Source: Oscillospiraceae bacterium (GTDB lineage: Bacteria > Bacillota > Clostridia > Oscillospirales > Oscillospiraceae). Taken from it: DNA of 64,000 bases. The notes beneath the pieces were generated by a model. It was not told the origin of the DNA. It saw only the letters and a program-made list of their open reading frames with translations, and ran no database searches. Of this stretch, positions 25,905 through 44,157 are shown one piece after another. The position numbers and the translations under genes were made by a program. The stretch is from NCBI GenBank assembly GCA_017461445.1, contig JAFTXW010000022.1, forward strand, positions 3,890-67,889, read 5' to 3'. Every line of letters starts with the position of its first letter. Within the stretch, counting starts at the first letter, position 1.

Positions 25905-25923
25905 TGTGCATCATTCAACGCAC

Positions 25924-29164: not shown

Positions 29165-30266
29165 GACCGCCATGGAGCATTACCGGGCTGGCACCGCCTC
29201 TGATACGGAACGCCGCCTGGTGGAAGAAGAATTGGAAAAATCCCGGCTGATCGCCGAATACCTGGATTCCCAGTGGGAAGCCGCCCCAATCGAAGAAGCC
29301 CCCCAAGTGGAGATGAAAAAGGTTCGCCGCAGCCTGTGGAAACGCAACGCCCTGATCGTCCTGACCAGCCTGGTGCTGGCGGCGGCACTGCTGTTCGGCA
29401 TGGTGCAGTACGCCATCCCTGCCGCCGAAGCCAAATACTGGGATCCCACCGCGAAATCGTACCCCGGCTATACCAACGATCTGACCCTGATTATGAACGC
29501 CTACTCCGAGCTATTCGCCCCGGAGCAGAATATTTACAGCGTCAACGCCACCCGCACCGGCTTTGCCAGCTATTCCCTGTCCGTGGCCCAGTGGCATACC
29601 CGGGATCACGGCGACATCAGCTACCTGACCGCCTCCCTGAACAAGAGCGAGCTGAGCTTCCCCAACGGCTTCTGGGAGTTCTGCTCCGCCAACATCTTCG
29701 AGCGGGCCACCTATCCCTTCTACTTTCAGGATGAAGAATTTGTCCAAAACACCCGGGAAAGCCTGGGGCAGCTGCCGGACTATGTGCAGATCCGTGCCGC
29801 CATCTCCTTTCCGGAGGATCTGAGCATGGAGGAGTTGATCGCCTTTCACAACTCTCTGGAGAAAGGCTATGTGGAATGGGTCGGCATCCGCAACAGCGAG
29901 CTTGACCAGCAGCGGTATCCCCTGTGCGGCATGAAGCCCTTTGAGGGCGGCGTGTATTATGAACACATCAACGAGGATTATCCTTATTTCGACATCAAAG
30001 ATAGAGAGAAGACCGCCGAAAATCTGGAAACCCACTTCAAATCCCTGCTCCAATACTCCCAGGATCAGTTTGCCGCAGGCACGGGCATCAAGGCCGGCAG
30101 CTACGCCACCGATTCCTACTACCAGCTGTCCCTGGACTACATTGAGGAACACGGCGTTTACACCTACGGCTGCTTCGTAAGCGGCCCCGCCCAGCTGTTC
30201 CTGGACCTGCTGGACAGCGGCGCCGCCTCCCAGGTCTGGATCCAGGATGCCTGGATCAACGCATAA
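29154..30266 (+). CDS. Putative anti-sigma factor (N-terminal cytoplasmic helix, one TM, large extracytoplasmic domain)
   Basis: Overlaps the sigma gene by 11 nt. TM helix 'ALIVLTSLVLAAALLFGMV'. The extracytoplasmic domain is not recognised. Confidence 0.55.
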   Translation: MDFKTAMEHYRAGTASDTERRLVEEELEKSRLIAEYLDSQWEAAPIEEAPQVEMKKVRRSLWKRNALIVLTSLVLAAALLFGMVQYAIPAAEAKYWDPTAKSYPGYTNDLTLIMNAYSELFAPEQNIYSVNATRTGFASYSLSVAQWHTRDHGDISYLTASLNKSELSFPNGFWEFCSANIFERATYPFYFQDEEFVQNTRESLGQLPDYVQIRAAISFPEDLSMEELIAFHNSLEKGYVEWVGIRNSELDQQRYPLCGMKPFEGGVYYEHINEDYPYFDIKDREKTAENLETHFKSLLQYSQDQFAAGTGIKAGSYATDSYYQLSLDYIEEHGVYTYGCFVSGPAQLFLDLLDSGAASQVWIQDAWINA

Positions 30267-30270
30267 ATCA

Positions 30271-30305
30271 AGGGCACCCGCAAGGGTGCCCTTTGTTGTT
30301 GTTTC
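30271..30305 (+). terminator. Rho-independent terminator
   Basis: agggcaccc-gcaa-gggtgccct followed by ttgttgttgttt. Confidence 0.8.
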
Positions 30306-30316
30306 GCTGTAAATCA

Positions 30317-30335
30317 GTGTAGGGCGGGGTCATGA
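30317..30335. repeat. REP subtype A, left half only
   Basis: gtgtagggcggggtcatga with no matching right arm. Confidence 0.6.
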
Positions 30336-30429
30336 TCTGGGTCTGGTGCCCGGTGAGCATTCCAGCGGAGATAAGCAGTGCCGTACAGGGATTGACAAAA
30401 GTCATTTCATAACAGTATTAGCAATATGA

Positions 30430-30463
30430 AAACTGCCTGCCGGTTTCGTTCGGCAGGCAGTTT
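30430..30463. terminator. Terminator after argS (bidirectional form)
   Basis: aaactgcctgccg-gtttcgtt-cggcaggcagttt. Confidence 0.8.
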
Positions 30464-30465
30464 GT

Positions 30466-32214
30466 TTACATTTTCTCAGGCGCGGAGAAGCCCAGCAGGT
30501 CGATGCAGGTTTCCAGCACGTTCTTGGCAAGGCCGATCAGGGCGATGTGTCCCGCCTTGACCTCCTCGTTCTCCTCCTTGAGGATGGGGGTCTCGTGGTA
30601 GAACTTGTTGACGCAGCCGGCCAGCTCGTAGATGTAGGCGCAGACCAGGTTGGGGGCGGAGGACTTCAGCGCAGTTTCCAGCGTGGGGCCCAGCTTGGTG
30701 ATGGCCAGCATCAGATCCTTGGCATAGGCGTTCGCGGGAGCCTGGATGGGCAGGTTCTCCCAGTCGCCGTACTTCGCCAGAATGGACTTGACACGGACAA
30801 TGGTGTAGAGGATATAGGGGCCGGTGTTGCCCTCGAAGGCGGCGAACCGCTCCAAATCAAAGTTGTAGTCCTTGGTGGGCTGGTTGCTCAGGTCGCCGTA
30901 TTTCAGGGCGGCCAGGGCAATCTTGGCAGTGGTGGCCTCCACTTCGGATTCCTCCACGATCTTGTTCTCTACGACCTTAGAGCGGACGAAGTCGGTCATG
31001 TCGGACACCAGCTGCTCTAAGCGCAGAACGCCGCCGTCCCGGGTCTTGAAGGGCTTGCCGTCCTTGCCGTTCATGGTGCCGTGGCCTACGTGCTCCAGCT
31101 CGGTGGTCTCGCTGACGATGCCCGCCTTCCGGGCAGCCCGGAACACCTGCTCAAAGTGCAGGTTCTGCCGCTTGTCGGTGACGTAGAGCATCTTATCGGG
31201 GTTCCAGTCCTGCATACGCTGGACCATGGTTGCTAGGTCGGTGGTAGCGTAGATGGCGGAGCCGTCGGACTTCACAAGGATCATGGGAGGAACTTCCTTC
31301 TTGTCGCTTTCCTCGGCAACGGGAACCACCCAGGCACCCTCGGACTGCACAGCCAGCCCCCGTGCCTTCAAATCCTCGACCATGGCGGGGATGTAGGGGT
31401 CTGCGTCGCTTTCGCCCAGCCACTTTTCAAAGTGGACATCCAGCACACCATAGATGCGCCGCAGGTCGGGCAGGGATACGCCCATGATGTGGTCCCAGAT
31501 GGCCCGGTAGCCCCGGCGGCCCTGCTGCAGCTCGTAGGTGGCGGTGTGGGCCTTCTCGGCAAAGGCGGGATCCTTCTTCTTGGCAGAGGCGGTGGGGTAG
31601 ATCTCTTCCAGCTCGGAGAGGGTAAAGGGGGATTCGGCGGGATAGTCCCCGGTGAAATCGGGATCGAAGTAGGGTAGGTCAGGCTGCCGCTCCTGCAGCT
31701 CCGCGATGATCAGGCCCATCTGCAGGCCCCAGTCGCCCAGGTGCACGTCGCCGATGGTGTTGTAGCCCATAAATTTGTGGAGCCGTTTCAGGCTCTCGCC
31801 GATGATGGCGGGACGCAGGTGGCCGATGTGCAGGGGCTTGGCAACGTTTGCGCCGCCGTAGTCCACCACGATGGTCTTACCTGCGCCGATCTTGGTAACG
31901 CCGAAGTCGGGGGCGGTGCGCATTTCTTCCAGATAGTTCTTGAGGAAGGCGTCGCTGAGCTTCAGGTTGATGAAGCCGGGCATGACGGCATCGATCATGG
32001 AGAAGTCACTTGCGTCCAGCTTTTCCGCGACGTTCTTCGCGATTTGGATGGGGGCGCACTTGTAGGTCTTGGCAGCGGCCAGCGCGCCGTTGCACTGATA
32101 TTCGCACAGGTCAGGCCGGTTGGAGACCGTCACCCGGCCAAAGGATGCGTCATAGCCCGCGTCCGCAAAGGCCTGCTGCATTTTGGCGGTGATAATGTCG
32201 AGAATTTTTTCCAT
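30466..32214 (-). CDS. argS: Arginine--tRNA ligase
   Basis: 'ANVAKPLHIGHLR' HIGH motif, Arg-tRNA synthetase N-terminal domain, and a DALR-type anticodon domain; 582 aa. Confidence 0.9.
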   Translation of the reverse strand: MEKILDIITAKMQQAFADAGYDASFGRVTVSNRPDLCEYQCNGALAAAKTYKCAPIQIAKNVAEKLDASDFSMIDAVMPGFINLKLSDAFLKNYLEEMRTAPDFGVTKIGAGKTIVVDYGGANVAKPLHIGHLRPAIIGESLKRLHKFMGYNTIGDVHLGDWGLQMGLIIAELQERQPDLPYFDPDFTGDYPAESPFTLSELEEIYPTASAKKKDPAFAEKAHTATYELQQGRRGYRAIWDHIMGVSLPDLRRIYGVLDVHFEKWLGESDADPYIPAMVEDLKARGLAVQSEGAWVVPVAEESDKKEVPPMILVKSDGSAIYATTDLATMVQRMQDWNPDKMLYVTDKRQNLHFEQVFRAARKAGIVSETTELEHVGHGTMNGKDGKPFKTRDGGVLRLEQLVSDMTDFVRSKVVENKIVEESEVEATTAKIALAALKYGDLSNQPTKDYNFDLERFAAFEGNTGPYILYTIVRVKSILAKYGDWENLPIQAPANAYAKDLMLAITKLGPTLETALKSSAPNLVCAYIYELAGCVNKFYHETPILKEENEEVKAGHIALIGLAKNVLETCIDLLGFSAPEKM

Positions 32215-32233
32215 AAAGTTTATTTACTCCTTT

Positions 32234-32430
32234 GTAGGGGAGGGTCTTGACCCTCCCATCCATTTTGGAACAAAATGGAAATGCCGGTAGGTAATCATTA
32301 TTTTCCTGCGGGAAATCCAAAAATCCTGACGAATTTTTGGCGGGAGGGCGGTGCGTCGCGCAGCGAATCAAAATATTGATGATTGCCGGTGGCAATCATA
32401 CAATAATTCAATATGACCCTCCCCTACAGG
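32234..32430. repeat. Composite ~195-bp MITE-like element bounded by subtype-B arms
   Basis: Starts gtaggggagggtc and ends gaccctcccctacagg. Internal hairpins are ccattttgg/ccaaaatgg and tgattgcc/ggcaatca. Confidence 0.6.
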
Positions 32431-32437
32431 AACTTCC

Positions 32438-34042
32438 TTACTGCTTCTTATTTTCCGCCATCCAGGCAAGGTAATCGTCGTAGGTGCCGTACTTGTCGAT
32501 GATGGTGCCGTCGGGCTGGAAGGCGATGACGCGGTTACAGGTGGAGGTCAGCATTTCGTGGTCGTGGGAGGCCAGCAGCACAACGCCCTGGAAGGCCTCC
32601 AGACCCTTGTTGACCGCCTGGATGGATTCCATGTCCAGGTGGTTGGTGGGCTGGTCCAGCAGCACCACGTTGGCACCGGAGAGCATCATCTTGGAGAGCA
32701 TACAGCGGACCTTCTCACCGCCGGAGAGGACGTTAACGGGCTTGAACACGTCCTCATTGCTGAACAGCATACGGCCCAGGAAGCCGCGCAGGTATACATC
32801 GTCCTTCTTGGCGGAATACTGACGCAGCCAGTCCACCAGCTCCATCTTGTTGCCCTCGAAATACTCGGTGTTGTCCTTAGGCAGGTAGCTGCGGACGGTG
32901 GAGATGCCCCACTTGATGGAGCCTTCATCCGGCTCCAGCTCGCCCATCAGCACCTTGAACAGGGCGGTCTGGGCCAGCTCGTTCTCACCCACAAAGGCGA
33001 TCTTGTCGGTGCGGTTCACGGAGAAGTAGACCTTGTCCAGCAGCTTCACGCCGTCCACGGTGACGGACACGTCCTTGACGGTCAACACGTCCTTACCCAG
33101 CTCCCGCTCCTGCTGGAAGCCCACGAAGGGGTAGCGGCGGGTGGAGCAGGGCATTTCCTCAACGGTCAGCTTGTCCAGCAGCTTCCGGCGGGCGGTAGCC
33201 TGCTTGGCCTTGGACTTGTTGGCGGAGAAACGCTGGATGAACAGCTGCAGCTCTTCAATCTTTTCCTGGTTCTTCTTGTTCTTGTTGCGGATCATGGCCT
33301 GAACCATCTGGGAGGACTCGTACCAGAAGTCGTAGTTGCCCACGTACATCTTGATCTTGCCGTAGTCGATGTCCACGGTGTGGGTGCAGACGGTGTTCAG
33401 GAAGTGGCGGTCATGGGAAACGGCGATGACCATGCCGGGGAAGTCCAGCAGGAAATCCTCCAGCCAGTTGATGGCTTCAATGTCCAGGTTGTTGGTGGGC
33501 TCGTCCAGCATGACGATGTCGGGGTTGCCGAACAGCGCCTGGGCCAGCAGCACCTTCACCTTCAGACGGGGGTCGGTGGAGCCCATCAGGTCATAGTGGA
33601 GGTCGGTGCCGATGCCGAGGCCCTGCAGCAGGCGGGAGGCGTCGGATTCCGCTTCCCAGCCGCCCAGCTCGGCGAACTCCGCTTCCAGATCGGCGGCCCG
33701 GAGGCCGTCCTCGTCGGAGAAGTCCTCCTTTTCGTAGATGGCATCCTTTTCCTTCATCACGTCATACAGGTGCTGATTGCCCATGATGACGGTGTCCAGA
33801 ACAGTGTATTCGTCGTAGGCGTTCTGATTCTGCTTCAGAACGGACACCCGCTTGTCGGGGTCGATGTTGATGCTGCCGGTGGTGGATTCCAACTCACCGG
33901 TGAGGATGCGCAGGAAGGTGGACTTGCCCGCGCCGTTGGCACCGATGATACCGTAGCAGTTGCCGGGCAGGAACTGCAGGTCAACATGCTGGAACAGCCA
34001 CTGGCCGCCGAATTGCATTCCTAAATTACTGACTGTGATCAT
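32438..34042 (-). CDS. ABC-F family ATPase (two NBDs, no TM domain)
   Basis: Two Walker A motifs ('GANGAGKST', 'GENELAQT..' degenerate), two 'LSGGE' signatures, and a charged linker 'KNKKNQEKIEELQ'. Confidence 0.85.
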   Translation of the reverse strand: MITVSNLGMQFGGQWLFQHVDLQFLPGNCYGIIGANGAGKSTFLRILTGELESTTGSINIDPDKRVSVLKQNQNAYDEYTVLDTVIMGNQHLYDVMKEKDAIYEKEDFSDEDGLRAADLEAEFAELGGWEAESDASRLLQGLGIGTDLHYDLMGSTDPRLKVKVLLAQALFGNPDIVMLDEPTNNLDIEAINWLEDFLLDFPGMVIAVSHDRHFLNTVCTHTVDIDYGKIKMYVGNYDFWYESSQMVQAMIRNKNKKNQEKIEELQLFIQRFSANKSKAKQATARRKLLDKLTVEEMPCSTRRYPFVGFQQERELGKDVLTVKDVSVTVDGVKLLDKVYFSVNRTDKIAFVGENELAQTALFKVLMGELEPDEGSIKWGISTVRSYLPKDNTEYFEGNKMELVDWLRQYSAKKDDVYLRGFLGRMLFSNEDVFKPVNVLSGGEKVRCMLSKMMLSGANVVLLDQPTNHLDMESIQAVNKGLEAFQGVVLLASHDHEMLTSTCNRVIAFQPDGTIIDKYGTYDDYLAWMAENKKQ

Positions 34043-34089
34043 TTCATACTCCTTATATTTTCATTATTTTTATTCTTAACACTGTGTAT

Positions 34090-34119
34090 CGCGTAGGGGC
34101 GACCCTTGCGGTCGCCCGG
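34090..34119. repeat. REP subtype C, left copy (cgcgtaggggcgacccttgcggtcgcccgg)
   Basis: Exact reverse complement of 35058-35087. Confidence 0.9.
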
Positions 34120-34181
34120 TGATTTTGCAAAGCAAAATCACACCGCCGCAGTCTATGGTTTGCAGAGGATATTTTTTGTAA

Positions 34182-34859
34182 TTACCCGTTAAGACGCCTT
34201 TCCATTTCCTCAATATCATATTCGAGAAAATATGGCTGCAATTTGTGGTAGAATTCTTTCAGCTTGTCATGTGTCATAAATACCACATCGCATCCACGAT
34301 CGTCATAAATTGAGAAAATGCATTCATGTTCAAAGGAAACAAAACTTACTTCGTGTGCGTTGACCCCTTCGAGTTCCTGCTCAATGAGATGCCGATAATC
34401 AAATTCAGCACCATCTGAGAAACAAATAACGCGATTTCTCTGTTGCCTGCCATAGTCAATATCATTCGGGTCATCATATGTTTCCAGGTTTCTAGCAGTA
34501 AAATGTCGGTAATTGAGTTGATAGTACGACAAGAACTTTAATTTTTCTCTCTCATACTCAAGTCTATTCTCGATTACACCTTCAAGGTCGAAATCCGAAT
34601 CGTAGACGTGTTTTTCTGCATTACCACTATCACAATAATCGTACAACCAATGGTTAAAGAATATTGCATCAGCTCCATTATGAAATAGAATGTGATAAAT
34701 CTCCAATGCACGTCTTTTGGCGTTCTCCATGTATTCTTCGGTTGCGTCCCCAATTCCCAGTTCACAACGAAGAGCATACGGATTGTTGTAGAAGTACGGA
34801 TGTAGATATTGGAAATCGTTGCTGCAAAGTTTCTTTTCAACTATGCTATTGCCTAACAC
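34182..34859 (-). CDS. DUF3885-like hypothetical protein (225 aa), foreign base composition
   Basis: GTG start with AGGAGG upstream. 'ALRCELGIG' and 'SIYDDRGCDVVF' match my recollection of DUF3885. Codon usage is A/T-ending, unlike the neighbours. Confidence 0.55.
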   Translation of the reverse strand: MLGNSIVEKKLCSNDFQYLHPYFYNNPYALRCELGIGDATEEYMENAKRRALEIYHILFHNGADAIFFNHWLYDYCDSGNAEKHVYDSDFDLEGVIENRLEYEREKLKFLSYYQLNYRHFTARNLETYDDPNDIDYGRQQRNRVICFSDGAEFDYRHLIEQELEGVNAHEVSFVSFEHECIFSIYDDRGCDVVFMTHDKLKEFYHKLQPYFLEYDIEEMERRLNG

Positions 34860-35057
34860 GACAATTCCTCCTACAGTATGGTTTTAGATAAAATAACATG
34901 AACACTTTTTTCTGTCCAGCATATATCTAAGAGCGCACTTACTCACCACCGGCTTTGTTGGTGGTGTCGTGCTTTTGGGAAAAACATCCTTGACAAATAC
35001 CATACCATGCGGCACAATTTTTGATTGCCCTGTCGGGCAATGGCACCCGAGGGGTGC

Positions 35058-35087
35058 CCGGGCGACCGCAAGGGTCGCCCCTACGCG
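35058..35087. repeat. REP subtype C, right copy
   Basis: ccgggcgaccgcaagggtcgcccctacgcg. Confidence 0.9.
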
Positions 35088-35172
35088 TACCGCCCACATC
35101 TTTTGTGCATACTCATACACCATAATGATACCACATAATTGTAAATAAAGAAAGAACTTTTTTCCAAAGGGC

Positions 35173-35200
35173 TTGCAATTTTCTGCGGGGGCGTTATAAT
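35173..35200 (+). promoter_or_regulatory. htpG promoter
   Basis: TTGCAA (35173-78), 16-nt spacer, TATAAT (35195-200). Confidence 0.65.
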
Positions 35201-35201
35201 A

Positions 35202-35228
35202 TTAGCACTCGAACACCTAGAGTGCTAA
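35202..35228 (+). promoter_or_regulatory. CIRCE operator (HrcA binding site)
   Basis: TTAGCACTC-gaacaccta-GAGTGCTAA, a perfect consensus beginning 2 nt after the -10. Confidence 0.9.
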
Positions 35229-35253
35229 ATTAATAAGGACGTGAAGTACAATT

Positions 35254-37143
35254 ATGGAAAAAATGCAGTTTAAGGCAGAATCTCAGCGTCTTCTGGACCT
35301 GATGATCAACTCCATCTACACCCACCGGGAGATCTTCCTGCGAGAGATCATCTCTAACGCAAGCGATGCCATCGACAAGCTGGCCTACACCGCCCTGACC
35401 GATGACAAGGTGGGCATCTCCCGGGACCAGTTCGCCATCACCATCACCCGGGACGAGGAAAACCGCACCCTGACTGTTTCCGATAACGGCATCGGTATGT
35501 CCAAGGAGGACATGGAGGAGAACCTGGGTACCATCGCCAAGTCCGGCTCTCTGGGCTTTAAGCAGGCTATGGAAAAGCAGGAGGACATCGACATCATCGG
35601 CCAGTTCGGCGTGGGCTTCTACTCCGCCTTTATGGTGGCTTCCTCCATCACCGTCATCTCCAGGAAGTACGGCGAGGACAAGGCCTGGAAGTGGGTCTCC
35701 GACGGCGCAGACGGCTACACCATCGAGGAGACCGAGAAGGACGCTCCCGGCACCGACATCATTATGACACTGAAAGCCGACACCGAGGAGGACAAGTATT
35801 CCGAATTCCTGGAGGAGTATGAGATCCGCTCTCTGATCCGCAAGTATTCCGACTATATCCGCTACCCCATCCGCATGGAGGTCAGCAAGTCCCGCAAGAA
35901 GGAGGATTCTCCCGAAGACAAGCCCGAGTACGAATCCTACCTGGAAATGGAGACCCTCAACTCCATGGTGCCCATCTGGCAGCGGGCCAAGAAGGACGTT
36001 TCCGATGAGGAATACGAATCCTTCTACCGGGAAAAGTTCTTCGACTACAACAAGCCCCTGCGGGTGATTCATTCCAGTGCCGAAGGAAGTGTCAGCTTCA
36101 AGGCTCTGCTGTATATCCCCGGCAAGGCACCCTACGATTTCTACACCAAGGACTTCAAGCGGGGCCTGCAGCTGTATTCCAGCGGCGTGATGATCATGGA
36201 AAACTGCGAAGACCTTCTGCCCGAGCACTTCCGCTTCGTCCGGGGCATCGTGGACAGCCAGGATCTTTCCCTGAACATCAGCCGTGAGATGCTGCAGCAC
36301 AACCGCCAGCTGACCATCATCGCCCGGAACATCGAGAAGAAGATCAAGTCCGAGCTGAAAAACATGCTGGAAAACGACCGGGAGAAGTACGAGGAATTCT
36401 ACGCCGCCTTCGGCCGTCAGCTGAAGTACGGCACTGTCTCCGACTATGGTGCCCACAAGGATGCCTGCCAGGATTTGCTGCTGTTCTACAGCCACAAGGA
36501 AAGCAAGCTGGTCAGCCTGAAAGAGTACGTGGAGGCCATGCCCGAGGGACAGGAGAAGATCTATTTCGCTCCCGGTGAGAATAAGGACCGTCTGGCAAAG
36601 CTGCCCCAGGTTCAGACCCTGGAGAAGAAGGGCTACGATGTGCTGCTCTTCACCGAGGATGTGGACGAGTTCATCCCCCAGACCCTGATGACCTACATGG
36701 AGAAGCAGTTCTGCAACATCTCCACTGAGGATTTGGGCCTGCAGACCGAGGAGGAGAAGAAGGAGGCTGAGGAGAAGGCCGAGGAGCTGAAGGGCTTCCT
36801 GACCTTCGTGAAGGAATCCCTGGGCGAGCAGGTGAAGGAAGTGAAGCTGTCCCAGAACCTGGGCAATCAGCCCGTCTGCATGACCCCTGATGCTGGCATG
36901 AGCTTCGAGATGGAGAAGTATATGAAGCGGATGAACCCGGAGTTCGCCTACCCCGTGGGCCGCATTCTGGAGCTGAACGCCGACCATGAGGCCGTCCAGG
37001 CCATGCAGAAGGCCATGACCGAGGATCCCCTCAAGGCCAAGGATTACGCCCAGCTGCTGTGCTACCAGGCCCAGCTGATGGCGGAGCTTCCCCTGGAGGA
37101 TCCCTTCGCCTATACCGAGTTGGTCTGTAAGCTGATGAAGTAA
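35254..37143 (+). CDS. htpG: Molecular chaperone HtpG (Hsp90)
   Basis: 'FLRELISNASDA', 'IGQFGVGFYS' and 'LNISREMLQ' are Hsp90 signatures; 629 aa. Confidence 0.95.
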   Translation: MEKMQFKAESQRLLDLMINSIYTHREIFLREIISNASDAIDKLAYTALTDDKVGISRDQFAITITRDEENRTLTVSDNGIGMSKEDMEENLGTIAKSGSLGFKQAMEKQEDIDIIGQFGVGFYSAFMVASSITVISRKYGEDKAWKWVSDGADGYTIEETEKDAPGTDIIMTLKADTEEDKYSEFLEEYEIRSLIRKYSDYIRYPIRMEVSKSRKKEDSPEDKPEYESYLEMETLNSMVPIWQRAKKDVSDEEYESFYREKFFDYNKPLRVIHSSAEGSVSFKALLYIPGKAPYDFYTKDFKRGLQLYSSGVMIMENCEDLLPEHFRFVRGIVDSQDLSLNISREMLQHNRQLTIIARNIEKKIKSELKNMLENDREKYEEFYAAFGRQLKYGTVSDYGAHKDACQDLLLFYSHKESKLVSLKEYVEAMPEGQEKIYFAPGENKDRLAKLPQVQTLEKKGYDVLLFTEDVDEFIPQTLMTYMEKQFCNISTEDLGLQTEEEKKEAEEKAEELKGFLTFVKESLGEQVKEVKLSQNLGNQPVCMTPDAGMSFEMEKYMKRMNPEFAYPVGRILELNADHEAVQAMQKAMTEDPLKAKDYAQLLCYQAQLMAELPLEDPFAYTELVCKLMK

Positions 37144-37149
37144 GCGCAA

Positions 37150-37215
37150 GTTAGGAGTTAGGAATTAGGGGTGAGGAATTTTACCATTCCTGATTTCTAA
37201 TTCCTACTTTTTTCT
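37150..37215 (+). terminator. htpG terminator built from AT-rich word palindromes
   Basis: taggaattag...ctaattccta outer stem, gaggaat/attcct inner stem, then cttttttc. Confidence 0.65.
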
Positions 37216-37268
37216 TCCCAATGGTGTGCAAATGTGCTATACTATTCAAAAAATGTGGAGGGAATCCT

Positions 37269-37766
37269 ATGAGTAAGAAAAAGACACTCACCATTGGCCT
37301 GACGATCATTGCTGTCTGTCTGTTGATCTGCGTGGTCTACGGAGTGATGAACCGCAGTGAGAAGCGGGGGCCGACCCAGCAGGAAATGGAAGCCTATGCT
37401 CCCTATGCCATCAACTGGCAGGAAGCCACCGGACTGGAAGGCACCGAAAAGGAGATCATCCTGAGCCTTTGCACCTTTGTTGAGGAAAAGACCATCGGCC
37501 AAAACCTGTATCAGATCTATACCTCCGATACCCTGGGCGGATACCTGTACGGCTTCACGGAAATGAACCAGATCGCGGAGCTGGACGGCGCGGTGTATGT
37601 CCAGTATTATGCCCAGGATGGAGATATGGTCACCCTGAACTACTCCGATGCGGGACTGACGGAGTTGGGTGTTTATGATGCGGAAACGGATACCTTCTAC
37701 CATGACCTGAACGGTACCGTGGAAGTCTGGACCAATTTCCGCAGCGGTATCCAATGGGGCGCGTAA
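37269..37766 (+). CDS. Hypothetical N-terminally anchored protein (165 aa)
   Basis: I chose ATG 37269 as the start because GGAGGG lies upstream. It has a signal-anchor 'LTIGLTIIAVCLLICVV'. Confidence 0.6.
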   Translation: MSKKKTLTIGLTIIAVCLLICVVYGVMNRSEKRGPTQQEMEAYAPYAINWQEATGLEGTEKEIILSLCTFVEEKTIGQNLYQIYTSDTLGGYLYGFTEMNQIAELDGAVYVQYYAQDGDMVTLNYSDAGLTELGVYDAETDTFYHDLNGTVEVWTNFRSGIQWGA

Positions 37767-37844
37767 ATTCCATAGAAAATTCCTTGCGCTGAGAAGGAAT
37801 GTGTGGTAAACTGATCCCAAATAAACAGAAAGTGAGGAATCTCG

Positions 37845-38561
37845 ATGTCGCCTGCTTATGAGTATTCTTATATGATGGAGGAGGGCGTCAGTGCGGTGCT
37901 GTCCGGACTGTTTTCCACCATCCCTTCCGGCCTGCTGAATATTGCCGGCTATGTACTGACCGCGTTGGCCCTGTATACCCTGGCCCAGCGGCGGGGAATT
38001 AAGAACCCCTGGCTCAGCTGGATCCCTGTGGTGAATGTGTGGATCTTAGGCTCCCTGTCCGACCAGTACCGCTATGTGGTCAAGGGCGAGAATAAGTCCA
38101 AGCGGAAGTTCCTGCTGGTACTGAATATCCTTTCCGCGGTTATGACTGCCGTGATCGTGGTGGTGGCACTGGTGATGCTGGTGGATGTGATCGGCAGTAC
38201 CATGTATGGCGTGGTGAGTGAAGCGGAACTGATGGAGGCGATCTTGGGCCCTGTTGTCGGTATTGTGGGTCTGGCCCTGCCTCTGGCGGGTGTTGGCATT
38301 GCCTACATGGTCATCTACTTCATGGCACTGCATGATGTGTACGCTTCCATGGATCCTGATAACAAGGTGCTGTTCCTGGTGCTGAGCATCCTGCTCGGTG
38401 TGACGAAGCCCTTTTTCCTGTTCTTTAACCGGAACAAAGATCTGGGTATGCCTCCCAGAAAGCAGGAGCCTGTCTTTACCCCGCCCCAGGAGCCCCAGTG
38501 GCAGCCCCAGCAGCCCATCCAGGAACCCTGGGAGAACTCCGAAAATAAGGATTACCTGTAA
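37845..38561 (+). CDS. Hypothetical polytopic membrane protein with a Pro/Gln-rich C-terminal tail
   Basis: Four or five TM helices; tail 'PPRKQEPVFTPPQEPQWQPQQPIQEPW'. Confidence 0.6.
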   Translation: MSPAYEYSYMMEEGVSAVLSGLFSTIPSGLLNIAGYVLTALALYTLAQRRGIKNPWLSWIPVVNVWILGSLSDQYRYVVKGENKSKRKFLLVLNILSAVMTAVIVVVALVMLVDVIGSTMYGVVSEAELMEAILGPVVGIVGLALPLAGVGIAYMVIYFMALHDVYASMDPDNKVLFLVLSILLGVTKPFFLFFNRNKDLGMPPRKQEPVFTPPQEPQWQPQQPIQEPWENSENKDYL

Positions 38562-38567
38562 TACCCA

Positions 38568-38599
38568 CCGGAACCTCGCAAGAGGTTCCGGTCTTTTTT
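38568..38599 (+). terminator. Rho-independent terminator
   Basis: ccggaacctc-gcaa-gaggttccgg followed by tctttttt. Confidence 0.85.
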
Positions 38600-38600
38600 G

Positions 38601-38629
38601 TTGACAAATACGAACAGATGTTTTATAAT
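38601..38629 (+). promoter_or_regulatory. Consensus promoter with an embedded LexA (Cheo-type) SOS box
   Basis: TTGACA (38601-06), 17-nt spacer, TATAAT (38624-29). CGAACAGATGTTTT (38611-24) matches CGAACRNRYGTTYC at 13 of 14 positions. Confidence 0.7.
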
Positions 38630-38658
38630 AATGCCATCGAAAAAAGGAGGAATTCGCT

Positions 38659-38853
38659 ATGAATGTCTACGAAACCTGCCCCGAGGTATCCAACGACCGC
38701 TTCGTCCTTCGGCTTGTGAGGGAAAGCGACTGCGCCGACCTGCTGAAGGTATACTCCGACGAGGCGGCAGTTCCCTTGTTTAACAGCGATAACTGCAACG
38801 GAGATGCCCCCGAGGCTGCGGAGGAAGCGAAGAAAGAGCTATGCACTTTGTAA
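38659..38853 (+). pseudogene. N-terminal remnant of a GNAT-type acetyltransferase (64 codons)
   Basis: 'FVLRLVRESDCADLLKVYSDEAAVPLFNSDNCNGD' is the start of a GNAT family I recognise. It then diverges and stops, overlapping the next gene by 13 nt. Confidence 0.45.
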
Positions 38854-39707
38854 CGGCGAAGGGCATTCTGTCGGCCCAAAACGGCTTGAATCTTTACCGG
38901 GGCTGCCAGCATGGGTGCATCTACTGCGATGCCAGGAGTAAGTGCTATCAGATGGATCACATCTTTGAGGATATCGAGGTGAAGGGAAACGCCATTTCCC
39001 TGTTGGATGCCGCCCTGCGGGTCAAGCGAAAGCCCTGTATGATCGGTACCGGGGCCATGTCGGATCCTTACATGCCCCTGGAACGGAAGCTGGGAATGAC
39101 CCGAAAAATGCTGGAAACGGTGGAAAAGCACGGCTTCGGTGCAACACTGCTGACAAAGTCCGACGAAGTCCTACGGGATCTGGACATTCTGACGCGGATC
39201 AACCGCCGCACCAAGGCGGTGGTGCAGATGACCCTGACCACCTGGGACGAGGAGCTGTGCCGCATCGTGGAGCCGGGGGTGTGCACCACCGCCCACCGGG
39301 TGGCAGCATTGAAGGAATTGCAGACGGCGGGGATCCCCACGGTGGTGTGGCTGTGCCCCATTCTGCCATTTTTGAATGATACAGAGGAAAATATTCTGCG
39401 CATTGTAGGTGCCTGCGCCGACGCAGGGGTGAAGGGTATCATCCAGTTCGGTATGGGGCTGACCCTGCGGGAGGGGAACCGGGAATATTTTTACGCGAAA
39501 CTGGACAAATTCTTCCCGGGGCTGAAGGAGCGGTATGTCCGTACCTACGGCTATGCCTACGAACTGCCCAGCCCCAATGAGCGGAGATTGCTGCGGCTGT
39601 TTCACGAGACCTGTGAAGCCCGGGGCATCTGGCACGACAATGGCAAAATCTTTGCGTATCTGCATACCTTTGAGGAAAAATCGGAGCAGCTGAGTTTGTT
39701 TGAATAG
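38841..39707 (+). CDS. Radical SAM protein, SplB / COG1533 'DNA repair photolyase'-like
   Basis: 'YRGCQHGCIYCDA' CxxxCxxC cluster near the N-terminus, 'GAMSDPYMPLE', 'LTKSDEVLRDLDIL' and 'CPILPFLND'. Confidence 0.75.
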   Translation: MHFVTAKGILSAQNGLNLYRGCQHGCIYCDARSKCYQMDHIFEDIEVKGNAISLLDAALRVKRKPCMIGTGAMSDPYMPLERKLGMTRKMLETVEKHGFGATLLTKSDEVLRDLDILTRINRRTKAVVQMTLTTWDEELCRIVEPGVCTTAHRVAALKELQTAGIPTVVWLCPILPFLNDTEENILRIVGACADAGVKGIIQFGMGLTLREGNREYFYAKLDKFFPGLKERYVRTYGYAYELPSPNERRLLRLFHETCEARGIWHDNGKIFAYLHTFEEKSEQLSLFE

Positions 39708-39723
39708 AAATGGAGGCGGAAGG

Positions 39724-41244
39724 ATGACAAAGCAATATGTAGCCATCGATTTGAAATCCTTCTATGCCTCTGTGGAGTGTGTGGAACGGGGACTGGACCC
39801 GCTGACCACCAATCTGCTGGTGGCGGATGCGGGTCGGACGGAAAAGACTATCTGTCTGGCGGTGTCTCCCAGTCTCAAGGCCTACGGTATCCCCGGCCGG
39901 GCAAGGCTCTTCGAGGCGGTGCAGAAGGTGAAGGAGGCCAATGCCCTCCGCCGAAGCCACACGCCCAAGCACGAATTTACCGGGAAATCCTGGGATTCCA
40001 AGGCGTTGAAGGAGACCCCGGCTCTGGAGATCGATTACATCACCGCCCCGCCCCGAATGGCCCATTACATGGCCTACAGCGGGAAAATCTACGAGATTTA
40101 CCTCCAATTTGTGGCCCCGGAGGATATCCATGTCTATTCCATTGATGAGGTGTTCATCGATGTGACCCCCTATCTCAGAACTTACGGCATGACCGCCCGG
40201 GAATTGACTGTGGCCATGATCCGGGAGGTACTGAAGCAGACGGGCATCACGGCCACGGCGGGCATCGGCACCAATCTGTACCTGTGCAAGGTGGCCATGG
40301 ATATTGTTGCCAAGCATGTGGAGCCGGATAAGGATGGAGTGCGCATCGCGGAGCTGGATGAAATGTCCTACCGGCAGCTTCTTTGGGATCACCGGCCATT
40401 GACCGACTTCTGGCGGGTGGGCCGGGGCATTGCCCGGAAGCTGGAAAAGAACGGCATGTTCACCATGGGGGACGTGGCCCGGTGCTCTATCGGAAATCCA
40501 AACGAATTTTTCAATGAGGAGCTGCTGTATAAGCTGTTCGGCGTAAATGCGGAGCTGCTGATCGATCATGCCTGGGGCTGGGAAAGCTGCACCATCACCG
40601 ATATCAAGGCCTACCGGCCCACCACCAATTCCCTTGGTTCCGGACAGGTGCTCCACTGCGCCTATACGGCCCAAAAGGCGAAGCTGATCGTCCGGGAAAT
40701 GACAGACCTGCTGGTGCTGGATCTGGTAGACAAGGGGCTGGTGACGGATCAGATGGTGCTGACCGTCGGCTACGACATTGAAAATCTCACCGATCCGGAG
40801 ATCAGTAAGTATTACAAGGGCCCGGTGGTGACGGACCACTATGGGCGGAAAATTCCCAAGCACGCTCACGGCACTGCAAATCTGCGCCGCCAGACCTCCT
40901 CCACGGCCATCATCACCGAAGCGGTGATGGAGCTTTATGACCGGATCGTGGATCCAAACCTGCTGGTGCGCCGGGTCAATCTGGTGGCGGCCCGTATCGT
41001 GGACGAAAAAAGTGCCGCCGAAGCGGCACCCATGGAGCAGCTGGACCTGTTTTCGGACTTCGAGACAGATCAGAAGCGGCGGGAGGAAGAGGAAGCGGCC
41101 CTGCGGCGGGAAAAACGCCGCCAGCAGGCTGTGATTACCATCAAGAAAAAGTACGGCAAGAACGCCATCCTCAAGGGCATGAATCTGGAGGAGGGGGCCA
41201 CTGCCAAAGACCGCAACCGCCAGATCGGCGGACACAAAGCATGA
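39724..41244 (+). CDS. Y-family (translesion) DNA polymerase, UvrX/YqjW-like
   Basis: 'YVAIDLKSFYASVECV' catalytic N-terminus, 'YSIDEVFIDVT' and a little-finger region. I chose ATG 39724 as the start because GGAGG lies upstream. Confidence 0.85.
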   Translation: MTKQYVAIDLKSFYASVECVERGLDPLTTNLLVADAGRTEKTICLAVSPSLKAYGIPGRARLFEAVQKVKEANALRRSHTPKHEFTGKSWDSKALKETPALEIDYITAPPRMAHYMAYSGKIYEIYLQFVAPEDIHVYSIDEVFIDVTPYLRTYGMTARELTVAMIREVLKQTGITATAGIGTNLYLCKVAMDIVAKHVEPDKDGVRIAELDEMSYRQLLWDHRPLTDFWRVGRGIARKLEKNGMFTMGDVARCSIGNPNEFFNEELLYKLFGVNAELLIDHAWGWESCTITDIKAYRPTTNSLGSGQVLHCAYTAQKAKLIVREMTDLLVLDLVDKGLVTDQMVLTVGYDIENLTDPEISKYYKGPVVTDHYGRKIPKHAHGTANLRRQTSSTAIITEAVMELYDRIVDPNLLVRRVNLVAARIVDEKSAAEAAPMEQLDLFSDFETDQKRREEEEAALRREKRRQQAVITIKKKYGKNAILKGMNLEEGATAKDRNRQIGGHKA

Positions 41245-41254
41245 AGGAGCAGCC

Positions 41255-41671
41255 ATGAAGCTGAAAAACACCCACAAATACGACGACATCATCCACCTGC
41301 CCCACCCAGTGTCCCAGCGGCGCAGCCGGATGACCAATTACGACCGGGCGGCCCAGTTTTCCCCCTTCGCGGCCCTGACGGGCTACGACGCGGTGATCGA
41401 GGAGACGGCCCGACTGACGGACAGCCGTATTGAGCTGGACCAGGGAGCGGTGGAGCAGCTGAATGAGCGGCTGCTGGAAATTCGGGACAGCATATCCTCC
41501 CGCCCGCTGGTTACCCTGACCTGGTTTCGCCGGGACGAACGAAAAGCCGGCGGCGCATACATCCGCGCCACCGGCCGCGTGAAGAAAATCGACAGCTATA
41601 CCAATACCATCGTGCTGACGGACGGAACGGTGATCCCCATCCGGGAGCTGGCTGACGCGGAGCTGCTGTAA
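41255..41671 (+). CDS. YolD-like protein (UmuD-surrogate accessory of Y-family polymerases)
   Basis: 'DRAAQFSPFAALTGYD' YolD-type motif; 10 nt after the polymerase stop. Confidence 0.7.
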   Translation: MKLKNTHKYDDIIHLPHPVSQRRSRMTNYDRAAQFSPFAALTGYDAVIEETARLTDSRIELDQGAVEQLNERLLEIRDSISSRPLVTLTWFRRDERKAGGAYIRATGRVKKIDSYTNTIVLTDGTVIPIRELADAELL

Positions 41672-44015: not shown

Positions 44016-44157
44016 CGCGTAGGGGCGACCCTTGCGGTCGCCCGGCGATTTGGTACAAATCGCACCGCCGAAGGCGGCAAAAACATTCCCAAATGGGGAG
44101 AGTCTTGATGCGATGCTACGCATCGCATCGGGCGACCGCTAGGGTCGCCCCTACGCG
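44016..44157. repeat. ~142-bp MITE-like element with subtype-C terminal inverted repeats
   Basis: The 29-bp arms differ at one loop base. The interior holds three short hairpins (gatttgg/caaatc, ccgccg/cggcgg, gatgcgatgc/gcatcgcatc). Confidence 0.8.

What the first reader, a model, noticed from the sequence alone, without database searches (positions are those of the whole stretch)
34090..35087. Low-GC 1 kb segment with a DUF3885-like gene, bracketed by a perfect 30-bp inverted repeat
cgcgtaggggcgacccttgcggtcgcccgg (34090-34119) is the exact reverse complement of 35058-35087. The roughly 940 bp between them is conspicuously AT-rich compared with every flanking gene; this is an eye estimate, not computed.

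The segment encodes a single ORF with A/T-ending codons, a GTG start and a strong AGGAGG RBS. The motifs 'LRCELGIG' and 'SIYDDRGCDVV' match my memory of the DUF3885 family. That family often sits among orphan immunity-like genes.

The same 29-30-bp ends bracket only about 85 bp of hairpins at 44016-44157. So this may be a MITE-like element that has captured or carries cargo, or a horizontally acquired gene that landed between two REP copies. The insert lies between the ABC-F gene and the CIRCE-controlled htpG promoter.
Basis: partly seen in the sequence, partly recalled or inferred. Interest (0 to 1): 0.66.

Follow-up and report, generated by a model that had tools for sequence, protein, structure and literature searches.

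The report
Foreign immunity-like gene nested in REP doublet
A 1-kb insertion found only in this lineage places an AT-rich, horizontally acquired DUF3885 gene (probably an orphan toxin-immunity gene) inside a pair of ordinary GC-rich REP hairpins between the ABC-F and htpG genes; it is a neat example of known processes, not a new kind of mobile element.

Summary
The 30-mer at 34090-34119 is the exact reverse complement of 35058-35087. The interior is 39% GC against 56% for the window, and ORF 34182-34859(-) is a DUF3885 protein (PF13021, E=1e-21).

Sixty-nine related metagenome loci keep argS-abcF-htpG synteny. None has the gene. Their smallest intergenic regions (about 213-217 bp) match the window's two flanks (47+166 bp). 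So the repeat-bounded 998 bp is a lineage-specific insertion.

It has two layers:
- **Shell:** about 182 bp at 58-60% GC, built from GTAG-tagged REP hairpins. It resembles the 142-bp doublet at 44016-44157.
- **Cassette:** 816 bp at 39% GC (34158-34973), holding a promoter, RBS and ORF.

Cassettes with 67-90% protein identity sit at unrelated sites in other gut Clostridia without these arms. The arms are therefore host REPs, not cassette termini.

The same intergenic spot carries other palindromic inserts in relatives, so it is an insertion hotspot.

Function is inferred. On a Priestia plasmid, DUF3885 directly follows an RHS toxin with an Ntox21 C-terminal domain. In S. aureus it neighbours a toxin annotated 'SAR2788 family'; a B. 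thuringiensis toxin so annotated is 57% identical to the Priestia Ntox21 domain. This points to an orphan immunity gene.

I could not tell whether the cassette entered a resident doublet or moved together with it.

The parts
34090..34119 (+). Left arm: a GTAG-tagged REP unit. CGC-GTAG head, 8-bp stem GGGCGACC/GGTCGCCC, loop CTTGC.
   Evidence: Exact 30-mer. Hairpin at 34097-34117 in the ssDNA fold, z=-4.5 for 34085-34150. The same 25-mer core occurs in more than 120 GTDB stretches.
34119..34148 (+). Left shell companion: hairpin TGATTTTGC-AAA-GCAAAATCA followed by CACCGCCG. Homologous to the sequence just inside the left arm of the 44016 doublet.
   Evidence: Positions 1-59 of the element align with positions 1-55 of the 44016 doublet. 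Fold. The whole left shell, 34090-34157, is 0.60 GC.
34158..34973 (-). AT-rich DUF3885 cassette (816 bp): 5' hairpin, promoter, RBS, ORF and about 25 nt of 3' UTR. This is the unit shared with homologous loci in other genomes.
   Evidence: blastn HSP limits against L226/L227 (34158-34953), L236 (34180-34973) and L222 (34180-34952). GC 0.39. Alignment A1.
34182..34859 (-). DUF3885 ORF, 225 aa, GTG start.
   Evidence: AlphaFold2 model pLDDT 91.6. 531 homologues with E <= 0.001.
34867..34872 (-). Ribosome-binding site AGGAGG, 7 nt before the GTG start.
   Evidence: Read from the sequence. Homologues have GGAGGG or GGGGGG at the same alignment columns.
34890..34918 (-). The cassette's own sigma-70-like promoter: TGGACA, 17 nt, TG-TATTTT.
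   Evidence: Consensus scan. CTGGACAG-N-TATATT is conserved in L222, L226, L228 and L236. No transcript data.
34944..34966 (+). Hairpin CACCACCGG-CTTTG-TTGGTGGTG at the 5' edge of the cassette. Terminator-like on the + strand, so a possible insulator against antisense transcription.
   Evidence: The hairpin is retained with changed stem bases in L226, L236 and L237.
34974..35057 (+). Right shell. Holds GGGAAAAACATCC (compare GGCAAAAACATTCC in the 44016 doublet), then hairpins at 35024-35041 and 35042-35058.
   Evidence: Fold, z=-3.4. The whole right shell, 34974-35087, is 0.58 GC. The collinear match to the 44016 doublet is weak: score 9 against a null of 8.3 +/- 1.3.
35058..35087 (-). Right arm: the same REP unit in the opposite orientation, with the GTAG head facing outwards.
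44016..44157 (+). Cargo-free sister element: a REPIN-like inverted doublet of the same REP with 84 nt of small hairpins between the arms. It lies downstream of the gene that ends at 43975.
   Evidence: ssDNA fold -68.4 kcal/mol, z=-13.4.
35138..35167 (-). Candidate native abcF promoter (TTGGAA, 18 nt, TACAAT). The insertion now separates it from abcF by about 1 kb.
   Evidence: Consensus match only. The -10 lies in the block AATTGTAAATAAAG, present in most of the relatives examined. Inferred, not shown.
35173..35228 (+). htpG promoter (TTGCAA, 16 nt, TATAAT) and CIRCE operator at 35202-35228. The insertion leaves both untouched.
   Evidence: the sequence, and conservation in all relatives.

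Best explanation
The 998-bp segment is a lineage-specific insertion in the abcF-htpG intergenic region, most likely in the abcF 5' leader. It has two layers of different origin.

Outer layer. About 182 bp of host-like, GC-rich sequence forms a REPIN-like doublet: two copies of a GTAG-tagged REP hairpin in head-out inverted orientation, plus small companion hairpins. It is the same kind of element as the 142-bp doublet at 44016-44157.

Inner layer. An 816-bp AT-rich single-gene cassette (34158-34973) carries its own promoter, RBS and a DUF3885 ORF. This cassette circulates horizontally among gut Clostridia and is found elsewhere without these arms.

The perfect 30-bp inverted repeat is therefore a pair of host REPs, not the termini of the gene's own vehicle. 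The most likely history is that the cassette landed in the central spacer of a REP doublet. In the cargo-free doublet that position holds the hairpin CCGCCGAAGGCGG.

The gene points the same way as abcF. It can be transcribed from its own promoter, with probable read-through into abcF, because the REP hairpins lack a U-tract on that strand.

DUF3885 most probably acts as an orphan immunity protein that neutralises an Ntox21/SAR2788-type polymorphic toxin delivered by competitors.

Shown here: the insertion, its composition, the layered anatomy, the REP nature of the arms, and the cassette's independence from the arms. Inferred: the order of events, the promoters and read-through, and the immunity function.
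For: Empty sites. In 69 related metagenome loci (HtpG 81-91% aa identity) with argS-abcF-htpG synteny, none encodes DUF3885. Their intergenic regions are 173-737 bp, with one at 1917 bp. The common short ones, 210-217 bp, match the window's flanks of 47+166=213 bp.

Layering. The cassette limits set by homologues are 34158-34973, inside the arms. GC is 0.39 for the cassette against 0.60 and 0.58 for the shell and 0.63 for the 44016 doublet. GC3 is 0.389 against 0.84-0.87. The shell's left 59 nt align with the 44016 doublet.

Cassette without arms. Cassettes at 67-90% protein identity sit in eight different contexts (L008, L009, L010, L222, L226/L227, L228/L229, L235, L236). All are below host GC and none has the GCGACC arms.

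Arms are REPs. They have a GTAG head and a GC-rich hairpin. A cargo-free doublet exists in the same window. Head-out doublets of the same REP with 15-22 nt spacers occur in other Clostridia or Oscillospiraceae MAGs (L084, L104). A different GTAG doublet sits at the same spot in L146/L160. A GTAG doublet with nested fillers of 360 versus about 190 nt sits there in L191/L192. A RAYT-like Y1 transposase surrounded by GTAGGGGC-type REPs exists in a Clostridia MAG (L235).

Function. On a Priestia plasmid, DUF3885 (E=7e-52) starts 46 bp after a >2200-aa RHS protein whose last 72 residues are Ntox21 (E=8e-28). That toxin domain is 57% identical to a B. thuringiensis 'SAR2788 family putative toxin'. 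A DUF3885 gene neighbours a gene with the same annotation in S. aureus (PMC9520408). A 55%-identical homologue lies in an array containing Imm44 (weak, below the Pfam cut-off) and DUF4299.
Against: - No relative shows the intermediate state, that is, this REP doublet at this site without cargo. The order of events is therefore not demonstrated.
- The right-hand collinearity with the 44016 doublet rests on a 12-of-14 match that is not significant on its own.
- The arms are 30/30 identical, whereas the cargo-free doublet has 2 mismatches. That would also fit a recent joint arrival.
- The immunity role rests on gene neighbourhood in distant Bacilli (25% identity to the window protein).
- A B. thuringiensis SAR2788 toxin is followed by a different protein.
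- No toxin gene adjoins the window copy.
- The confident structure model has no informative fold match.
- The promoters are consensus matches only.
Confidence: 0.6

Rival explanations
1. A cargo-carrying REPIN. The doublet and the DUF3885 cassette moved to this site together as one 998-bp non-autonomous element, mobilised in trans by a REP-associated tyrosine transposase that recognises the GTAG hairpins. This mirrors the way RAYT genes themselves sit between inverted REPs.
For: - The arms coincide, to within about 10-20 bp, with the ends of the insertion relative to empty sites.
- The arms are perfectly identical.
- The size is close to a REPtron (a RAYT gene flanked by REPs).
- There is no target duplication, as expected for Y1/HUH transposition (read).
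- GTAG doublets arrived at this same spot independently in other lineages (L146, L191).
- A RAYT with GTAGGGGC-type REPs exists in a related class of MAGs.
Against: - All 13 contigs that carry the exact protein show this one site, apart from two short Logan contigs with no flanks.
- No second copy is present in the 64-kb window.
- Homologous cassettes elsewhere lack the arms.
- The layered composition shows the cargo is not an original part of the doublet.
- No RAYT was found in the window or in the fetched loci of this species.
Confidence: 0.22
2. The gene came first and the REPs later. The cassette inserted into a plain intergenic region, and two REP copies then inserted separately on either side. 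The mirror symmetry would be the result of REPs preferring gene boundaries.
For: - REPs in adjacent intergenic regions can bracket ordinary genes in inverted orientation (L026, L131).
- In other genomes the cassette is flanked by local repeat modules in direct orientation (L228/L229 about 73 bp, L226/L227 about 100 bp, L235 135 bp).
Against: - It needs two independent insertions of the identical 30-mer at mirrored positions.
- Both copies carry host-type companion hairpins.
- The left 59 nt match the 44016 doublet as a block.
- The arms show no divergence.
Confidence: 0.08
3. The cassette arrived by homologous recombination with a donor that already carried it at this locus. The REPs are then passengers of a recombined segment rather than actors.
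For: In contigs L002, L003 and L004 the insert and both intergenic flanks are 100% identical to the window. Identity falls abruptly to about 75-90% at about 35650 (inside htpG), about 33380 and about 33300 (inside abcF).
Against: - Each contig shows only one breakpoint. In L002 and L003 the divergent part is at the end of the contig, which chimeric metagenome assembly would also produce.
- This explains spread between lineages, not how the structure first arose.
Confidence: 0.1

Closest known systems
REP / REPIN elements: GTAG-tagged repetitive extragenic palindromes and their inverted doublets (Di Nocera 2013, PMC3733652; Bertels & Rainey 2011, PMC3116915)
   Same: Each arm has a GTAG head followed by a GC-rich imperfect palindrome of 25-30 nt. 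The elements are intergenic and occur as inverted doublets that fold into one long hairpin (the 44016 element, z=-13). There is no target duplication. The repertoire of variants differs between related species.
   Different: The spacer here is 938 nt and holds a foreign protein-coding gene, rather than the tens of nucleotides of a normal doublet. The host is a Clostridia-class Firmicute, a phylum not listed for GTAG repeats in the 2013 survey. The host's cognate RAYT and genome-wide copy number could not be examined.
REPtron: a RAYT (Y1 transposase) gene flanked by inverted REPs
   Same: One gene of 0.5-0.7 kb bracketed by two REPs in inverted orientation.
   Different: The gene is DUF3885, not Y1_Tnp. 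Pfam gives no PF01797 hit, and I see no HUH or catalytic-tyrosine motif. The gene is compositionally foreign to the REPs.
Insertion sequences that target REP/BIME palindromes, such as IS1397 and ISKpn1 into palindromic-unit loops and ISPpu10 into REPs (from my own knowledge; not checked here)
   Same: A foreign segment sits inside a REP cluster. The apparent junction is at the loop of an internal hairpin. Nested fillers occur in other doublets (L191 versus L192).
   Different: The cassette encodes no transposase and has no terminal repeats of its own.
Orphan immunity genes of polymorphic toxin systems (Zhang et al. 2012) and acquired interbacterial defence genes of gut bacteria (Ross et al. 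2019); both cited from my own knowledge
   Same: A small cytoplasmic protein family found directly after a polymorphic toxin gene in some genomes (RHS-Ntox21 then DUF3885). Elsewhere it is solitary, mobile between genomes and compositionally foreign.
   Different: No biochemical evidence exists for DUF3885. Here it is a single gene with its own promoter, not part of an immunity island.
MITEs: miniature inverted-repeat transposable elements
   Same: Terminal inverted repeats, small size, intergenic location, and an empty/filled site polymorphism.
   Different: No target-site duplication. The 'TIRs' are self-folding REP hairpins shared with unrelated loci. Only one copy of the 998-bp unit is seen.

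Membership tests
DUF3885 (Pfam PF13021) | Significant full-length match to the family HMM above the gathering threshold | tested here: met
   E=1.2e-21, 78.2 bits against a cut-off of 23; residues 11-215 cover profile positions 4-189 of 189. Pairwise E=4e-13 to a canonical Priestia DUF3885.
GTAG-tagged REP | A 20-40 nt GC-rich imperfect palindrome with the tetranucleotide GTAG at one end | tested here: met
   CGC-GTAG-GGGCGACC-CTTGC-GGTCGCCC-GG. Hairpin folds; sequences.
GTAG-tagged REP | Many dispersed, mostly intergenic copies in the genome, as singletons and dimers | tested here: inconclusive
   The 64-kb window holds 4 copies (2 doublets) plus at least 4 other GTAGGG palindromes. The 25-mer is dispersed in other genomes. 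The host's whole genome was not available.
REPIN | Two REPs in inverted orientation separated by a short spacer, folding into a single long hairpin | tested here: met
   Met for 44016-44157 (84-nt spacer, -68.4 kcal/mol, z=-13.4). For 34090-35087 the orientation is met, but the spacer is 938 nt, so the short-spacer criterion is not met.
REPIN/RAYT system | A cognate RAYT (Y1_Tnp with HUH and Tyr motifs) in the same genome, flanked by the same REP | not testable with these tools
   There is no homologue of the L235 RAYT in the window or in the fetched loci. A Clostridia MAG (L235) has a Y1_Tnp (E=3.6e-7, motifs HIHMIL and SFYEH) with GTAGGGGCGGAT-type REPs around and inside it, so the system does exist in the class.
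REPtron | The gene between the inverted REPs is a Y1 transposase | tested here: not met
   The only Pfam hit is DUF3885.
MITE / TIR transposon | Target-site duplication flanking the terminal inverted repeats | tested here: not met
   The flanks are ...GTGTAT|CGCG...CGCG|TACCGC at 34090/35087 and ...GCGTTC|CGCG...CGCG|AGGGCT at 44016/44157. No shared duplication is present.
MITE / TIR transposon | Multiple copies of the whole element at different sites | tested here: not met
   The exact protein occurs on 13 contigs. All informative ones are at the abcF-htpG site. There is one copy in the window.
Polymorphic-toxin immunity protein | Encoded immediately downstream of, and co-directional with, a toxin gene whose C-terminus is a toxin domain | tested here: inconclusive
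   Met for a distant family member (Priestia RHS-Ntox21 then DUF3885, 46-bp gap), and by annotation in S. aureus. Not met for the window copy, whose neighbours are abcF and htpG, so it would be an orphan.
Polymorphic-toxin immunity protein | Binds and neutralises the cognate toxin | not testable with these tools
   This needs co-expression or binding experiments.
Phage or plasmid cargo | Homologues carried on phage or plasmid records | tested here: not met
   No hit in IMG/VR or INPHARED. Only 5 distant hits on plasmids (<33% identity): four on Bacillaceae plasmids and one partial hit on a Stutzerimonas plasmid.

The most novel reading that the evidence does not exclude
The 998-bp unit is a REPIN that acquired a passenger gene and remains mobilisable in trans by a RAYT. 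That would be the first REP doublet shown to ferry non-transposase cargo. More broadly, REP doublets in gut Clostridia would act as landing pads and shuttles for single-gene cassettes such as DUF3885 here and the IR-bracketed DUF559 endonuclease at the same hotspot in L152.
Probability: 0.18. Interest if true: 0.65.

Novelty: new member of a known kind. Interest (0 to 1): 0.4.

Why it matters
The locus gives a clean, base-level example of how a gut Clostridium gains a single accessory gene. It has an empty/filled polymorphism across about 70 relatives. The foreign cassette brings its own promoter. The landing site lies inside a REP doublet, in an intergenic hotspot that different lineages have filled with different palindromic elements.

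It extends GTAG-tagged REPs, and at least one RAYT, to Clostridia.

It also supplies a testable functional lead for an uncharacterised family: DUF3885 as the immunity partner of Ntox21/SAR2788-type toxins.

If the doublet-plus-cargo unit proved mobile, REPINs would have to be regarded as possible gene vectors.

Tried and rejected
- Rfam scan of 30000-46000 at E<=1 gave only chance-level hits and no family for the arms.
- NCBIfam, PADLOC and PHROGs gave nothing meaningful for the ORF.
- A PDB sequence search gave 0 hits. Foldseek of a confident model (pLDDT 91.6) against PDB and BFVD gave no match with E<=0.001 and TM<=0.27. Fold gave no functional clue.
- A search for inverted repeats around homologous cassettes in L008, L009 and L010 found none bracketing the gene.
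- tRNA scans of the window and most cassette loci found none, so integration into a tRNA gene is not the explanation here. L236 has tRNA-Lys and tRNA-Gln next to the cassette.
- A phage vehicle is rejected: IMG/VR and INPHARED were negative.
- The idea that DUF3885 might itself be the transposase of the repeat is rejected. Its homologues are single-copy and lack these repeats elsewhere, and there is no Y1_Tnp signal.
- A search for REPtron-like pairs among 120 GTDB loci carrying the 25-mer gave only five pairs, one of them in a tandem-repeat stretch masked with Ns. Those with real ORFs enclose ordinary genes, and none encloses a transposase.
- tblastn with the L235 RAYT against everything fetched hit only itself.
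- The literature held no functional paper on DUF3885 and none on the 25-mer sequence.
- Exact-protein look-ups of the window's ABC-F and HtpG found only filled sites. Empty sites appeared only at the level of related species.
Full report
**Observation.** The 30-mer CGCGTAGGGGCGACCCTTGCGGTCGCCCGG lies at 34090-34119. Its exact reverse complement lies at 35058-35087, 938 nt away. A second pair lies at 44016-44045 and 44128-44157 (2 mismatches), with 84 nt between the arms. No match occurred in 100 shuffles. The interior is 0.39 GC, against 0.565 for the window and 0.55-0.64 for the neighbouring genes. GC3 of the ORF is 0.389, against 0.84-0.87 for argS, abcF and htpG. ORF 34182-34859(-) is 225 aa with a GTG start and AGGAGG 7 nt upstream. 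It is a full-length DUF3885 protein (PF13021, E=1.2e-21). The neighbours are an ABC-F ATPase (32438-34042, -) and HtpG (35254-37143, +), with a perfect CIRCE at 35202-35228.

**It is an insertion.**
- A scan of metagenome contigs with HtpG returned 80 loci from related species (81-91% aa identity).
- Sixty-nine of them have abcF and htpG adjacent and divergent as here, usually with argS beyond abcF. None encodes DUF3885 (tblastn).
- Their abcF-htpG spacers are 173-737 bp, with one at 1917 bp. The most frequent lengths are 341, 216 and 278 bp. The window's spacer is 1211 bp.
- The window's two flanks outside the arms are 47 and 166 bp, 213 bp in total. That equals the small empty spacers.
- Both flanks align with the conserved ends of those spacers: TTCATACTCCTTATATTT... 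on the abcF side and GCATACTCATACA...AATTGTAAATAAAGAAAGAAC on the htpG side.
- The inserted segment therefore coincides with the arm-bounded 998 bp to within about 10-20 bp of poorly conserved sequence.
- Every contig carrying the window's exact ABC-F or HtpG protein has the insert. It is fixed in this lineage and absent from sister species.

**The spot is a hotspot.** At the same position, relatives carry other palindromic inserts:
- a different GTAG-REP doublet with a 27-nt spacer (L146, L160);
- a GTAG doublet (GGGCGAT-GAAA-ATCGCCC) whose interior holds nested inverted-repeat elements, shorter in L192 than in L191;
- GTCATTGCGAGG-type inverted repeats (L198, L179);
- GTTGACAGTT repeats (L189);
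- in L152, an inverted-repeat-bracketed segment of about 500 bp encoding a DUF559 endonuclease (E=4e-32).

**The segment has two layers.**
- blastn against loci carrying homologous genes bounds the shared unit at 34158-34973 (alignment A1).
- That unit contains, on the - strand: a 5' hairpin; a sigma-70-like promoter (TGGACA, 17 nt, TG-TATTTT at 34918-34890) whose CTGGACAG...TATATT core is conserved in L222, L226, L228 and L236; the RBS; the ORF; and about 25 nt of 3' UTR.
- This 816-bp cassette is 0.39 GC.
- The remaining 68 bp on the left and 114 bp on the right are 0.60 and 0.58 GC. That is close to the cargo-free doublet at 44016-44157 (0.63).
- The left shell (arm, a second hairpin, then CACCGCCG; 59 nt) aligns as a block with the 44016 element.
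- On the right only the arm is clearly shared. A collinear GGGAAAAACATCC versus GGCAAAAACATTCC match is suggestive but not significant.
- Read together, the window has CACCGCCG | cassette | GGGAAAAACAT where the doublet has CACCGCCG-AAGGCGGC-AAAAACAT. The cassette sits where the doublet has a small hairpin.

**The cassette travels without the arms.**
- Proteins 67-90% identical are encoded next to a GDSL lipase gene (L008), between trmD and a prophage integrase (L009), beside the rnf genes (L010), next to a PLD-family gene (L222), next to tRNA-Lys and tRNA-Gln (L236), and elsewhere (L226-L229, L235).
- All of them are 0.37-0.43 GC in hosts of 0.45-0.60 GC.
- None has the GCGACC arms or any bracketing inverted repeat.
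- Three are flanked by imperfect direct repeats of local modules: about 73 bp (REP plus terminator) in L228/L229, about 100 bp in L226/L227, and 135 bp in L235.
- The gene is therefore a horizontally circulating single-gene unit. Repeats next to it reflect the repeat-rich intergenic DNA of these genomes.
- No phage record carries it. Plasmids carry only distant relatives, mostly in Bacillaceae.

**The arms are REPs.**
- Each arm is a GTAG-headed, GC-rich hairpin (8-bp stem, CTTGC loop). This is the defining anatomy of GTAG-tagged REPs (PMC3733652).
- The 44016 pair is a REPIN-like doublet that folds into one long hairpin (z=-13.4).
- The window holds further GTAGGG palindromes at 8312, 13341, 25875 and 32234.
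They come from Clostridia/Oscillospiraceae and, unexpectedly, from many other phyla, with unrelated flanks.
- Head-out doublets with 12-26 nt spacers occur in L084, L104, L087, L033 and L026.
- Sister variants keep the scaffold GTAGGGGC-N4-CTTGC-N4'-GCCC(C) with compensating stem changes.
- A Clostridia MAG (L235) encodes a RAYT-like Y1 transposase (PF01797, E=3.6e-7; HIH and SFYEH motifs). GTAGGGGCGGAT-ATC-ATCCGCCC REPs lie beside it and, in frame, inside it.
- Whether the window's host has a RAYT for its own REP could not be tested.

**Probable function of the gene.**
- DUF3885 has no literature, no defence-system or phage-family match, and no solved or predicted viral structural neighbour despite a confident model.
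- Context gives a lead. On Priestia megaterium plasmid pBM-Cp-1-6, a canonical DUF3885 gene (E=7e-52) begins 46 bp after a >2200-aa RHS-repeat protein. The last 72 residues of that protein are the Ntox21 toxin domain (E=8e-28), and a SMI1/KNR4 gene lies nearby. By the usual rule for polymorphic toxin loci, this is the immunity position.
- That Ntox21 domain is 57% identical to a B. thuringiensis 'SAR2788 family putative toxin'. In an S. aureus island, a DUF3885 gene neighbours a gene with that same annotation (PMC9520408).
- A 55%-identical homologue lies in a co-directional array with Imm44 (weak, below the Pfam cut-off) and DUF4299 genes.
- Against generality, a B. thuringiensis SAR2788 toxin is followed by an unrelated 172-aa protein.
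- I therefore rate 'orphan immunity gene against an Ntox21-type toxin' at about 0.5.

**Consequences for the neighbours (inferred).**
- The cassette points the same way as abcF.
- The best candidate for the native abcF promoter (TTGGAA, 18 nt, TACAAT at 35167-35138, - strand) has its -10 in a block present in most of the relatives examined. It lies on the htpG side of the insertion.
- If that is right, the insertion, like all the relatives' palindromic inserts, sits in the abcF leader.
- abcF would now be transcribed through or from the cassette, because the REP hairpins have no U-tract on that strand.
- The htpG promoter and CIRCE are untouched.

**Spread.** In contigs L002, L003 and L004, the insert and both intergenic flanks are 100% identical to the window. 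Identity then drops abruptly to about 75-90% at about 35650, about 33380 and about 33300, inside htpG or abcF. This is either recent transfer of the filled allele between diverged lineages by homologous recombination, or chimeric assembly. Each contig shows only one breakpoint, so I cannot decide.

**Verdict.** The finding is real and well explained by known processes: a foreign, promoter-bearing, probably immunity-type gene nested in a host REP doublet at an intergenic hotspot. The perfect inverted repeat is not the gene's own terminal repeat. The order of events remains open: nested insertion in place (my estimate 0.6) against joint movement of doublet plus cargo (about 0.2). The second would be new for REPINs. 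The cross-phylum occurrence of the identical 25-nt REP is the most surprising thing seen along the way, and it is only partly explained.

Noticed in passing
They come from many phyla: Chloroflexota/Ktedonobacteraceae, Clostridia, Bacteroidota, Gammaproteobacteria, Patescibacteria, Planctomycetota, Acidobacteriota, Actinomycetes and Latescibacterota. The flanks are unrelated and specific to each lineage. Sister variants keep GTAGGGGC-N4-CTTGC-N4'-GCCC with compensating stem changes. REPs are usually regarded as lineage-specific. Convergence on a constrained scaffold and transfer of REP/RAYT systems were not separated. No paper mentions the sequence.
   Followed up: partly
L050, L129, L017, L098, L109; L099 1241-1463: Many copies of that REP are followed by tandem duplications of only its 3' half (...GGTCGCCC repeated 2-5 times with short spacers). 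L099 has four tandem 66-bp units that each contain the REP. This suggests slippage or template switching at the hairpin.
   Followed up: no
L152 4264-5000 (abcF-htpG spacer of a relative): At the same hotspot, a pair of inverted repeats (CCTTCCCCCnGGGGGAAGG...GGATGAGGG) brackets about 500 bp encoding a 127-aa DUF559 (Vsr-like) endonuclease (PF04480, E=4e-32). This is a second example of a single gene inside a palindromic shell.
   Followed up: partly
L191 and L192 abcF-htpG spacers: The same GTAG doublet (GTAGGGGCGATGAAAATCGCCC ... RC) has an interior that is 171 bp longer in L191 than in L192. The extra sequence is another inverted-repeat element nested in its centre, so doublet centres seem to accept further insertions.
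   Followed up: partly
L235 6925-7502: A RAYT-like Y1 transposase gene (160 aa, PF01797 E=3.6e-7) carries two in-frame REP insertions (encoding VGADIIRP and GGRMISAPT). Two more REPs lie just downstream. It is about 340 bp from a DUF3885 gene.
   Followed up: partly
L235 5748-5882, 6776-6910, 8147-8220: There are three paralogous copies of a module that appears to encode a 44-aa hydrophobic peptide (…AEGFILGVGAKMFTIAGPVIVYGVSASVVYGLIYWITTLF). Two of them flank the DUF3885 cassette as 82%-identical direct repeats.
   Followed up: no
L236 955-1092; L238 and L226/L227, 3' of the DUF3885 gene: The 3' flank of several cassettes contains a sequence resembling a tRNA 3' end (GGTTCGAATCC...). In L236 a 15-nt copy of the T-arm/acceptor end of the adjacent tRNA-Lys lies inverted across a terminator from the real tRNA gene. 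In L226/L227 similar segments flank the cassette as direct repeats. This may be a trace of how the cassette integrates elsewhere. It is absent from the window copy.
   Followed up: partly
L002, L003, L004 against window 30000-38000: Mosaic identity. The insert and adjoining sequence are 100% identical to the window, but identity drops sharply to about 75-90% inside htpG (about 35650) or abcF (about 33300-33380). This is either recombination between diverged lineages or chimeric contigs.
   Followed up: partly
L216 1422-5000: In one relative, the first 31 codons of abcF are fused to a 553-aa ORF that is unrelated to abcF and was not examined further. A 365-aa zinc-ribbon/coiled-coil ORF lies between it and htpG. 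This is either a larger mobile-element insertion into abcF or an assembly chimera.
   Followed up: no
L239 (Priestia megaterium pBM-Cp-1-6) 1-5642: An RHS-repeat protein with a C-terminal Ntox21 domain is followed directly by DUF3885. Together with the S. aureus 'SAR2788 family toxin'/DUF3885 neighbourhood, this suggests a toxin-immunity pairing that the literature searches run here did not find described.
   Followed up: partly
window 34182-34859 (protein model m002321db8fa8): The AlphaFold2 model of DUF3885 is confident (pLDDT 91.6, pTM 0.88). It has no Foldseek neighbour in PDB or BFVD with E<=0.001 (best TM 0.27), so the fold may be uncharacterised.
   Followed up: yes
window 8306-8350, 13335-13379, 25869-25913, 30315-30335, 32228-32272: A second REP family consists of fully palindromic units with GTAG at both ends (for example TGTAGGGCGGGGTCTTGACCCCGCCCTACA). 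It is dispersed through the window, including the argS-abcF spacer.
   Followed up: partly
window 13773-13850 and 62818-62895: A 78-nt direct repeat at 87% identity covers an RBS and a lipoprotein-type signal peptide (MKKF..ALLLAL..LSLAAC). These are probably paralogous substrate-binding lipoprotein genes.
   Followed up: no
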